Shown here: piece by piece, positions 44,110-44,950 of the stretch
Layout of the letters: every line of letters begins with the position of its first letter
Numbering within the stretch: position 1 is the stretch's first letter
Assembly: GCF_048403405.1 (NCBI RefSeq)
Contig: NZ_CP183129.1
Source of the DNA: Escherichia coli
GTDB lineage: Bacteria > Pseudomonadota > Gammaproteobacteria > Enterobacterales > Enterobacteriaceae
DNA: 64,000 bases
Reading direction: 5' to 3' (one strand)
Position numbers and translations under genes: made by a program
Notes under the pieces: model-generated
What the model was told of the DNA's origin: nothing
The model's input: only the letters and a program-made list of their open reading frames with translations
The model's database searches: none

Positions 44110-44591
44110 TTTTTATTTCTCTTTCAGGTGAATAGATCGTTTTTACTATCTTACCCCGCACGAATCATCGTTAAAATCAGATTATAGTGTAGGAATAATT
44201 CGTTTTTTACGAACCATTGAAGGATTTGTGCCATCAGCGATGAGATGAGTTTTTGACGGCTGTAAGCGCTGACGTGTGACCCTAAGCCCTGATAATCATA
44301 GCTTAAGGTCAGGATTTCTGAGGGATTAATTAGGAAAAGTAATAATTAATTTGTTGTCAGTCGGCGATGTTTGTTAGGCCAATATTTCAAAAATAATCCA
44401 GTTTGTCGTCAATAATTGCGATGAAGAGATAAATTAAAGTTAAATAATTAAATCATTAAAAAATTACGCCATAAAAATGCGAGGCGTCTTCAGGATTAGA
44501 ATCGATAAAACAGAATGGGTTAAAGAGAGCGATATAATAGCGGCGGGTGCTTGAGGCTGTCTGTCTCAGGCATTAGCTGAACGGCAGATAG

Positions 44592-44646
44592 AGAAAAGCC
44601 CCGAGTGATATTTTACCATCAACCCGAGGCCCCCTATATGCTGAAC
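44592..44646 (-). ncRNA. sokC: SokC antisense RNA (antitoxin of hokC type I toxin-antitoxin)
   Basis: placed by transferring recalled K-12 coordinates through the exact nhaA/hokC offset; antisense to the mokC start; not independently detectable by eye. Confidence 0.5.
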
Positions 44647-44847
44647 ACATGTAGAGTGCCTCTTACTGACCGTAAGGTCAAGGAGAAGAGAGCAATGAAG
44701 CAGCATAAGGCGATGATTGTCGCCCTGATCGTCATCTGTATCACCGCCGTAGTGGCGGCGCTGGTAACGAGAAAAGACCTCTGTGAGGTTCACATCCGAA
44801 CTGGCCAGACGGAGGTTGCTGTTTTCACGGCTTACGAATCCGAGTAA
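44638..44847 (+). CDS. mokC: MokC, overlapping reading frame required for hokC translation
   Basis: 69-codon frame starting MLNTCRVPLTD that contains hokC in the same frame. Confidence 0.7.
   Translation: MLNTCRVPLTDRKVKEKRAMKQHKAMIVALIVICITAVVAALVTRKDLCEVHIRTGQTEVAVFTAYESE
44695..44847 (+). CDS. hokC: HokC (Gef) small membrane toxin
   Basis: 50-aa ORF MKQHKAMIVALIVICITAVVAALVTRKDLCEVHIRTGQTEVAVFTAYESE, the Hok family sequence. Confidence 0.9.
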   Translation: MKQHKAMIVALIVICITAVVAALVTRKDLCEVHIRTGQTEVAVFTAYESE

Positions 44848-44854
44848 GAGCAAC

Positions 44855-44934
44855 GGCGGGGAGTGATCCCCGCCACTTTACAGGTGCTCGCATATCTTCA
44901 ACGCACCCTATTTTTAACCAAGCCTGCCCACGGG
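44855..44934 (+). terminator. hokC 3' stem-loops (fbi-like fold-back and terminator hairpin)
   Basis: GGCGGGGAGTGATCCCCGCC and AGCCTGCCCACGGGCAGGCTTTT hairpins between hokC and convergent dnaJ. Confidence 0.55.
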
Positions 44935-44950
44935 CAGGCTTTTGGGGAGG

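What the first reader, a model, noticed from the sequence alone, without database searches (positions are those of the whole stretch)
44570..44950. Uninterrupted mokC/hokC/sokC type I toxin-antitoxin locus (no IS186 as in K-12)
hokC (50 aa) and the overlapping mokC frame are intact, and the distance from hokC to the dnaJ stop is only 103 bp. K-12 carries about 1.35 kb more here (IS186/insL, by the length arithmetic), an insertion thought to inactivate the locus. The downstream hairpins (GGCGGGGAGTGATCCCCGCC; AGCCTGCCCACGGGCAGGCTTTT) are contiguous with the gene, so the full-length hokC mRNA with its 3' fold-back element could form and the locus may be functional.
Basis: partly seen in the sequence, partly recalled or inferred. 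Interest (0 to 1): 0.4.

Follow-up and report, generated by a model that had tools for sequence, protein, structure and literature searches.

The report
Intact hokC toxin–antitoxin locus, ordinary
This is the normal, uninterrupted form of the E. coli hokC/sokC toxin–antitoxin locus, the form about 70% of sequenced E. coli carry; the IS186 insertion in strain K-12 is the exception, and this has been known since 1999.

Summary
The window is E. coli chromosome, with nhaA(-), hokC(+) and dnaJ(-). hokC (50 aa, 44695..44847) and the in-frame mokC (ATG at 44638) are intact, and 103 bp separate the hokC stop from the dnaJ stop. K-12 carries exactly 1,349 extra bases here: IS186 plus a repeated GGGAGTGATCCC. 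The insertion lies inside the first downstream hairpin (44855..44874), which is the only GGGG-N6-CCCC IS186 target motif in the 64-kb window.

All hok-family RNA elements are present. The predicted 399-nt mRNA closes through a 12-bp 5'-3' helix (44545-44556 with 44896-44908). When the 3' end is removed, the predicted fold switches to the open form of the plasmid R1 hok model. No disabling mutation was found; the differences from K-12 are majority alleles in a sample of seven strains.

None of this is new or unusual. The empty site occurs in 3,814 of 5,426 complete E. coli genomes. Papers citing Pedersen & Gerdes 1999 report that IS186 inactivates K-12 hokC, that an intact hokC was studied in strain ECOR24, and that it gave no post-segregational killing and no rifampicin activation.

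One addition from this work: IS186 occupies this same site in about 30% of genomes, in both orientations, so it inserted at least twice.

Verdict: already known, low interest.

The parts
44533..44538 (+). hokC promoter -10 box, TATAAT. No good -35 was found.
   Evidence: Read from the sequence. The box is conserved as TA(t/g/c)AAT in plasmid hok homologues. Strain-to-strain diversity drops sharply from this point on. Its role as the promoter is inferred.
44545..44943 (+). Predicted full-length hokC mRNA, 399 nt.
   Evidence: The 5' end is taken from the start of the Rfam RF01794 match and its spacing from the -10 box. The 3' end is taken from the terminator hairpin plus U run. MFE is -168.8 kcal/mol, z = -7.95. 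Both ends are inferred, not mapped.
44545..44556 (+). 'tac' element, the 5' partner of the end-to-end helix (GGGUGCUUGAGG).
   Evidence: It pairs with 44896..44908 in the MFE structure, with pair probabilities of 0.94 to 1.0. It is invariant in 7 E. coli strains. The helix is kept in plasmid homologues with a U-A to C-G compensatory change.
44596..44602 (+). 'ucb'-like box (AAGCCCC).
   Evidence: In predicted folds of 3'-shortened mRNA, and of the K-12/IS186 transcript, the 5' end re-pairs with this box. In the full-length fold its GCC lies in a local helix together with part of the mokC ribosome-binding site (GGC 44628..44630).
44588..44646 (-). sokC antisense RNA gene, 59 nt.
   Evidence: Coordinates were transferred from the K-12 annotation (sokC b4413, 16952..17010). 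There is one difference from K-12, at 44632. The RNA folds as a stem-loop followed by a U-rich tail, -23.1 kcal/mol, z = -4.95.
44653..44681 (-). Putative sokC promoter: -35 TTGACC (44681 to 44676), 17-nt spacer, -10 CACTCT (44658 to 44653), +1 at 44646.
   Evidence: Read from the sequence. It is identical to K-12, where SokC is an annotated RNA. The -10 is weak and the consensus scan did not report this site. The promoter is inferred from its position.
44626..44662 (+). mokC ribosome-binding site (GAGG, 44626..44629) and the SokC-target hairpin. GAGGC 44626..44630 pairs with the 'dcb' box GCCUC 44658..44662 in the open form.
   Evidence: Seen in the predicted fold of the mRNA cut just after hairpin 1 (ending at 44879) and of the K-12/IS186 transcript, but not in the fold cut at 44895. 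It matches the R1 model as described in PMC9841398.
44638..44847 (+). mokC reading frame, 69 aa, in frame with hokC and sharing its stop.
   Evidence: ORF list and the K-12 annotation, mokC 16751..16960.
44695..44847 (+). hokC toxin gene, 50 aa. Its ribosome-binding site AAGGAG is at 44680..44685.
   Evidence: Pfam PF01848 HOK_GEF, 85.5 bits. Annotated as 'type I toxin-antitoxin system toxin MokC', WP_000809168.1, in identical genomes.
44833..44836 (+). TACG motif at the Tyr47 codon. This is the reported TadA A-to-I editing site of hokC (Tyr to Cys).
   Evidence: The sequence is. Editing of hokC at the aligned 'position 46' is reported in PMC5630033. Editing was not tested here.
44855..44874 (+). 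Hairpin 1 (GGCGGGG AGTGAT CCCCGCC). It contains the empty IS186 target GGGG-N6-CCCC at 44858..44871, and the repeat that flanks IS186 in K-12 corresponds to 44859..44870.
   Evidence: Alignment with K-12. This is the only such motif in the 64-kb window. The motif itself is from PMC5009759.
44896..44908 (+). 'fbi' fold-back element (CUUCAACGCACCC), the 3' partner of the end-to-end helix.
   Evidence: It is invariant in 7 strains. Similarity to plasmid hok loci ends at window 44909, which is query position 390.
44920..44943 (+). Terminator hairpin plus UUUU. It is probably shared, on the opposite strand, with dnaJ, whose stop is at 44951..44953.
   Evidence: Sequence and a 9-bp stem in the MFE structure. 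The consensus scan did not flag it because the T run is only 4 bases. Its terminator role is inferred.

Best explanation
This is the wild-type, uninterrupted chromosomal hokC/mokC/sokC type I toxin-antitoxin locus of E. coli, lying between nhaA and dnaJ. It most likely works like hok/sok of plasmid R1.

1. A promoter with a consensus -10 box makes a roughly 399-nt mRNA. Its two ends pair (44545-44556 with 44896-44908), which locks it in a closed form that ribosomes cannot start on and SokC cannot bind.
2. Slow trimming from the 3' end, probably back to hairpin 1, removes the 3' partner.
3. The 5' end then re-pairs with an internal box (44596-44602). The mokC ribosome-binding site moves into a hairpin (44626-44662) that is the target of the short antisense RNA SokC, which is transcribed from the opposite strand (44646 to 44588).
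4. SokC binding leads to destruction of the mRNA. Without SokC, mokC is translated, hokC is translated with it, and the 50-aa peptide damages the inner membrane.

In K-12 and about 30% of other E. coli, IS186 sits in hairpin 1, an exact IS186 target motif, and so detaches the 3' partner and the terminator.

Shown here: the sequence elements, the predicted folds and refolding, the conservation, and the empty insertion site. Inferred from the family: transcription, processing, SokC action and toxicity.
For: Identity of the locus:
- Rfam RF01794, 119.5 bits.
- Pfam HOK_GEF, 85.5 bits.
- The 851-bp query 44110..44960 is 100% identical to genomes annotated mokC and dnaJ.
- Only one difference from K-12 lies between 44514 and 44870.

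Empty IS186 site:
- K-12 has 1,349 extra bp flanked by GGGAGTGATCCC.
- The site is the only GGGG-N6-CCCC in the window, and that is the published IS186 target motif.

RNA mechanism:
- A 12-bp end-to-end helix with p of 0.94 or higher, z = -7.95.
- Removing the 3' end, or giving the mRNA the K-12/IS186 3' end, switches the predicted fold to the 5'-end/44596-44602 pairing. The mokC-SD/44658-44662 pairing also appears when the mRNA is cut just after hairpin 1 or carries the K-12 3' end. This is the tac/fbi, tac/ucb and SD/dcb scheme described for R1 in PMC9841398.
- The end-to-end helix is predicted independently in two plasmid homologues about 75% identical or less, with a U-A to C-G compensatory change.

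Conservation in 7 strains:
- hokC third-codon-position diversity is 0.0056, against 0.056 for dnaJ third positions and 0.20 for the upstream spacer.
- tac and fbi are invariant.

Literature:
- IS186 disrupts the fbi of K-12 hokC/gef, and ECOR24 has the uninterrupted locus.
- Chromosomal hok loci of K-12 are inactivated by IS elements, point mutations or rearrangement.
Against: - Nothing here shows expression. The hokC promoter has no recognisable -35, the sokC -10 (CACTCT) is weak, and neither was found by the consensus scan.
- One secondary source gives about 330 nt for the ECOR24 transcript. That is shorter than the 399 nt predicted here. It fits a species ending at hairpin 1, but it could also mean that most transcripts never include the 3' partner.
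- About 30% of genomes tolerate IS186 here and one strain carries a nonsense codon in hokC, so the locus is dispensable.
- The conservation estimate rests on only 7 strains.
Confidence: 0.88

Rival explanations
1. The locus is intact in sequence but is a physiologically silent relic. The RNAs may be made, but the system never fires in the chromosome and has no selected function. IS186 insertion is therefore neutral.
For: - No post-segregational killing and no rifampicin activation were reported for intact ECOR24 hokC, and chromosomal systems were suggested to be inactive.
- IS186 is at the site in 681 + 924 of 5,426 genomes.
- Other disruptions occur: IS150 within the 5' leader in STEC276 and a CAG-to-TAG nonsense codon in strain E12.
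Against: - The transcription unit from +1 to the fold-back element is much less variable than its surroundings. This includes hokC synonymous sites, with third-position diversity 0.0056 against 0.056 in dnaJ. A decaying relic would not be expected to show this.
- tac and fbi are invariant.
- The sample is small, so this is only suggestive.
Confidence: 0.3
2. The empty site is derived, not ancestral. This lineage once carried IS186 as K-12 does and lost it by precise excision.
For: None found.
Against: - A single clean copy of the target is present.
- The empty state is found in 70% of complete genomes, over a range of sequence backgrounds with 96.5 to 100% identity.
- IS186 occurs in both orientations at the site, which requires independent insertions into an empty site.
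- A mutation-accumulation study recorded 758 IS insertions and only 1 excision.
Confidence: 0.02
3. Hairpin 1 is the real terminator of hokC, giving a roughly 330-nt mRNA. The downstream stretch 44875..44943 would then belong only to the dnaJ terminator region, and no end-to-end pairing would occur.
For: - A secondary source gives about 330 nt for the ECOR24 hokC transcript.
- 44545 + 330 falls at the 3' foot of hairpin 1.
Against: - Hairpin 1 is followed by ACUUUA, a poor U run.
- The 13 bases 44896..44908 are complementary to the 5' end, invariant among strains, conserved with compensation in plasmid hok loci, and mark the exact end of similarity to plasmid loci.
- Variation resumes immediately after 44908.
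- A 330-nt species is what 3' trimming back to hairpin 1 would leave.
Confidence: 0.07

Closest known systems
hokC (gef)/mokC/sokC (sof) of E. coli K-12 MG1655 (b4412, b0018, b4413)
   Same: It has the same chromosomal position (nhaA-dnaJ), an identical HokC and MokC coding sequence, and an identical putative sokC promoter. Between 44514 and 44870 there is one base difference (44632, C here and T in K-12).
   Different: K-12 has IS186A (1,349 extra bp including the repeat) inside hairpin 1, which separates the gene from the fold-back element and the terminator. The predicted K-12 transcript folds directly into the open form.
Uninterrupted hokC of E. coli ECOR24 (Pedersen & Gerdes 1999, Mol Microbiol 32:1090, known here only through citing papers)
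   Same: It is described as hokC without IS186, with the usual fbi and a cis-encoded SokC. That is the configuration found here.
   Different: Its reported behaviour (no post-segregational killing, no rifampicin activation) cannot be checked for this allele.
hok/mok/sok of plasmid R1 and related plasmid loci (pnd, srnB/flm)
   Same: It shares the toxin family (Pfam HOK_GEF), the leader RNA family (Rfam RF01794), the end-to-end helix, and the predicted refolding into the tac/ucb and SD/dcb stems (model). Plasmid homologues are about 75% identical from the -10 box to the fold-back element.
   Different: This locus is chromosomal. mokC is in the same frame as hokC and shares its stop. From my own memory, R1 mok is in a different frame. 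Chromosomal copies were reported not to stabilise plasmids.
IS186 insertion hot spots, GGGG(N6/N7)CCCC (Lee et al. 2016, PMC5009759)
   Same: Hairpin 1 contains GGGGAGTGATCCCC, an exact N6 motif. IS186 is found there in both orientations in natural genomes, as that paper reports for palindromic sites in the laboratory.
   Different: In this window the site is unoccupied.

Membership tests
[quoted passage not shown] | Small hydrophobic toxin of the Hok/Gef family | tested here: met
   Pfam PF01848 at 85.5 bits against a cut-off of 22. The 50-aa sequence is identical to K-12 HokC. NCBIfam Hok models match below their curated cut-offs.
[quoted passage not shown] | Upstream overlapping mok reading frame with its own ribosome-binding site, through which hok is translated | tested here: met
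   The ATG at 44638 is preceded by GAGG at 44626..44629. The frame is open to 44847 and corresponds to the annotated K-12 mokC. Translational coupling itself was not tested.
[quoted passage not shown] | Cis-encoded antisense RNA (Sok) that overlaps the mok start region | tested here: met
   The complement of 44588..44646 equals the annotated K-12 SokC with one base change. It folds into a stem-loop with a U-rich tail, z = -4.95. A putative promoter (TTGACC, 17 nt, CACTCT) is identical to K-12. Expression is not testable here.
[quoted passage not shown] | Conserved mRNA leader structure | tested here: met
   Rfam RF01794 matches full length (positions 1-157) at 119.5 bits against a gathering score of 59, on the hokC-sense strand.
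[quoted passage not shown] | 5'-3' end pairing (tac/fbi) that closes the full-length mRNA | tested here: met
   A 12-bp helix, 44545-44556 with 44896-44908, at p of 0.94 or higher. It is present in the consensus fold and in single folds of two plasmid homologues, with one compensatory pair. This is prediction only.
[quoted passage not shown] | Refolding after 3' shortening (tac/ucb and mok-SD/dcb stems) | tested here: met
   Predicted folds of the mRNA ending at 44895 or 44879 pair the 5' end with 44596-44602. The fold ending at 44879 also pairs 44626-30 with 44658-62. This matches the scheme in PMC9841398. In silico only.
[quoted passage not shown] | Toxicity on loss of Sok, and post-segregational killing | not testable with these tools
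   The literature reports HokC as toxic when overexpressed, and reports intact ECOR24 hokC as giving no post-segregational killing and no rifampicin activation.
IS186 target site (empty) | GGGG(N6/N7)CCCC motif, unoccupied, at the position where other genomes carry IS186 with a flanking repeat | tested here: met
   The motif is at 44858..44871 and is unique in the window. K-12 and strain 2014EL-1343-2 carry IS186 there, in opposite orientations, with the same 12-bp repeat. The motif definition is from PMC5009759.

The most novel reading that the evidence does not exclude
The intact hokC unit is kept by selection for a chromosomal role other than plasmid maintenance, while the RNA-structure constraint on its 3' hairpin preserves a perfect IS186 landing site. 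IS186 would then act as a recurrent natural off-switch for hok loci. Supporting observations: both orientations occur at hokC in about 30% of genomes; IS186 also lies next to hokE; and it sits in the equivalent hairpin of a plasmid hok copy. The occupancy figures themselves are solid. What is speculative is that the pattern reflects selection rather than neutral hot-spot insertion, and that it has not already been described.
Probability: 0.12. Interest if true: 0.4.

Novelty: already known. Interest (0 to 1): 0.1.

Why it matters
It matters little beyond correct annotation. The window carries the standard wild-type hokC locus, and K-12 is the atypical strain. The practical point is that conclusions about chromosomal hok loci drawn from K-12, where IS186 cuts off the fold-back element, do not carry over to most natural E. 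coli. Strains like this one are the right background for asking what chromosomal hok/sok loci do. The occupancy figures (70% empty, 13% one orientation, 17% the other) give a quick census of a natural IS186 hot spot.

Tried and rejected
- The consensus promoter/terminator scan of 44300..45000 found neither the hokC promoter, the sokC promoter nor the terminal hairpin. Its only hits were a minus-strand match over the palindromic TATAAT region and a weak hairpin inside hokC. Promoters were therefore placed by position and by homology to K-12 and plasmid loci.
- Junction counts from the hokC side gave 821 and 940 genomes. Together with the 3,814 empty-site genomes these exceed the total, probably because the similar hokE-IS186 junction also matches (see H98). 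They were replaced by counts from the unique dnaJ side, 681 and 924, which together with 3,814 account for 5,419 of 5,425 genomes.
- The primary paper (Pedersen & Gerdes 1999) and the Fozo et al. 2008 review are not held. Their content is cited only through other papers.
- The odd 711-bp 'insertion' in strain MLI104K2 consists of long G/C runs next to an IS186 end. It looks like a collapsed assembly of IS186 rather than a new element.
- The 95-aa ORF antisense to hokC (44566..44853) and the 96-aa ORF antisense to dnaJ were treated as mechanical ORFs.
- Precise excision of IS186 as the origin of the empty site was considered and rejected (see the rival explanations).

Full report
**What is in the sequence.** The window is E. 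coli chromosome in the reverse orientation of the K-12 map. nhaA runs 42943..44109 (-), dnaJ 44951..46111 (-) and dnaK 46170..48086 (-). Between nhaA and dnaJ, on the + strand, lies a 50-aa ORF at 44695..44847 that matches Pfam HOK_GEF at 85.5 bits. An in-frame upstream ATG at 44638 corresponds to K-12 mokC. The hokC stop ends at 44847 and the dnaJ stop occupies 44951..44953, so the gap is 103 bp as stated. Rfam's 'sok' model (RF01794) matches 44545..44697 full length at 119.5 bits. The match is on the hokC-sense strand, so it recognises the hokC mRNA leader rather than the antisense RNA itself. The 851-bp stretch 44110..44960 is 100% identical to several E. coli genomes, in which the gene is annotated as the type I toxin MokC next to dnaJ.

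**The IS186 site.** Aligning K-12 MG1655 (NC_000913 14000-19000) to the window gives two blocks that overlap by 12 bases at window 44859..44870 (GGGAGTGATCCC). They are separated in K-12 by 1,337 bp with IS186 ends (ATAAGCGCTAACTTAAGGG...), so K-12 has 1,349 extra bases. The insertion point is inside hairpin 1. That hairpin contains GGGGAGTGATCCCC (44858..44871), an exact instance of the IS186 target pattern GGGG(N6/N7)CCCC described by Lee et al. 2016 (PMC5009759). It is the only such pattern in the whole 64-kb window. The window therefore holds an empty, single-copy IS186 target.

**How common each state is.**
- A 200-bp probe across the site is contiguous in 3,814 of 5,426 complete E. coli genomes. 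In the others listed it breaks at window 44870.
- Probes spanning the unique dnaJ-side junction find IS186 in the K-12 orientation in 681 genomes.
- The same kind of probe finds IS186 in the opposite orientation in 924 genomes. Together the three states account for 5,419 of 5,425 genomes.
- The opposite-orientation insertion (strain 2014EL-1343-2) uses the same 12-bp repeat. IS186 therefore entered this site at least twice.
- IS186 is also next to hokE in some genomes (H98), and sits at the equivalent position of the hairpin in a plasmid hok copy, pTB-nb1.

The uninterrupted state is the majority state, and K-12 is the exception.

**Integrity of the regulatory elements.** Between 44514 and 44870 the window differs from K-12 at one base, 44632 (C here, T in K-12), which lies between the mokC ribosome-binding site and its ATG. 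Further differences are at 44513, 44917 and 44921. In an alignment with five other strains, the window's bases at 44632 and 44513 are the common ones and K-12's are the rare ones. The putative sokC promoter is identical to K-12, where SokC is an annotated RNA. It reads -35 TTGACC at 44681-44676, a 17-nt spacer, -10 CACTCT at 44658-44653, and +1 at 44646. The 59-nt SokC sequence folds as a stem-loop with a U-rich tail.

**RNA mechanism, as predicted.**
- The 399-nt transcript 44545..44943 folds at -168.8 kcal/mol, z = -7.95. Its first 12 bases pair with 44896..44908 at probabilities of 0.94 to 1.0. That 3' stretch, not either hairpin, is the fold-back element. It lies downstream of the IS186 site, so IS186 detaches it.
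- In the full-length fold the local helix containing GCC 44598..44600 also holds part of the mokC ribosome-binding site (GGC 44628..44630).
- When the 3' end is cut before 44896 or just after hairpin 1, or replaced by K-12's IS186 sequence, the 5' end is predicted to pair with 44596..44602 instead. In the fold cut after hairpin 1 and in the K-12 transcript, the mokC ribosome-binding site (44626-30) also pairs with 44658-62 in a hairpin whose loop faces the SokC 5' end.
- This reproduces the tac/fbi, tac/ucb and SD/dcb scheme established for R1 hok and summarised in PMC9841398.
- Two plasmid homologues fold with the same end-to-end helix on their own and in a consensus fold. One pair is changed on both sides (U-A to C-G).
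- Similarity to plasmid loci runs from the -10 box to window 44909, the end of the fold-back element.

**Conservation.** In seven strains, with IS186 removed where present, diversity is 0.20 in the spacer upstream of the promoter, where two very different haplotypes exist. It drops to 0.018 in the hokC leader and 0.004 in the coding region. It rises again to 0.08 immediately after the fold-back element. hokC third codon positions (0.0056) are ten times less variable than dnaJ third positions (0.056). This fits constraint on the whole RNA, but the sample is small.

**What is already known.** Papers citing Pedersen & Gerdes 1999 (Mol Microbiol 32:1090, not held) state the following.
- K-12 hokC/gef has IS186 downstream of the coding region, which disrupts the fbi and normal processing. 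ECOR24 carries hokC without it, with a transcript of about 330 nt (PMC3562002).
[quoted passage not shown] - HokC is toxic when overexpressed, and its mRNA is edited at a TACG motif (PMC5630033). That motif is present here at 44833..44836.

The quoted 330 nt equals the distance from 44545 to the foot of hairpin 1. I read it as the processed species, but that is an inference.

**Verdict.** The finding is the ordinary, majority, previously described state of a well-known locus. Whether such chromosomal loci do anything remains an old open question that this sequence does not make more testable than any other wild-type E. coli would. The only new material is the census of IS186 occupancy in both orientations. 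Interest is low.

Noticed in passing
window 44858..44871; L001, L003, L004, L007: The hairpin after hokC is a natural IS186 hot spot. IS186 sits at the identical site in 681 genomes in one orientation and 924 in the other, out of 5,426. It also sits next to hokE in some genomes and in the equivalent hairpin of a plasmid hok copy (pTB-nb1).
   Followed up: yes
window 35298..41802: A segment of about 6.5 kb between rpsT and nhaR is absent from K-12, which has IS1A at that point. It encodes a chaperone-usher fimbrial cluster: fimbrial subunit 37239..37772, PapD-type chaperone 37822..38505 and usher 38518..40968. There are also two ORFs with no Pfam match, 35516..36937 and 40981..41940.
   Followed up: partly
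window 55065..55772: An insertion of about 708 bp between thrC and yaaX is absent from K-12. It is an IS200 copy, with an IS200-like Y1 transposase ORF at 55168..55626 (-) and the Rfam STnc490 RNA at 55636..55759 (-).
   Followed up: partly
window 44315..44530 (compare L010, L012): The spacer between nhaA and the hokC promoter exists as two very different haplotypes among E. coli strains (pairwise diversity about 0.2). The sequences become nearly identical from the hokC -10 box onward.
   Followed up: partly
L012 (strain E12), equivalent to window 44701: A natural CAG-to-TAG nonsense mutation at hokC codon 3. The annotation there starts the protein at a later Met.
   Followed up: no
L004 (strain STEC276), equivalent to window about 44620: IS150 is inserted in the hokC leader / sokC gene, in addition to IS186 in the downstream hairpin. 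This locus has been hit twice.
   Followed up: partly
L009 (strain 200177), equivalent to window 44868: A C-to-T change in hairpin 1 (GGGGAGTGATTCCC) breaks the CCCC half of the IS186 target motif and turns one stem pair into G-U.
   Followed up: no
window 44833..44836: The Tyr47 codon of hokC is TAC within TACG, the motif reported for TadA A-to-I editing that recodes Tyr to Cys in hokC, hokD and hokE (PMC5630033).
   Followed up: no
window 46082..46159 and 26281..26333: Rfam matches to tpke11 (between dnaK and dnaJ, - strand) and to the ES003 sRNA (- strand), both above their gathering scores.
   Followed up: no
L005 (strain MLI104K2), locus 2598..3308: A 711-bp filler in hairpin 1 is made of long G/C runs next to an IS186 end and is annotated as a hypothetical protein. 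It looks like a collapsed assembly of IS186 rather than a real element.
   Followed up: partly
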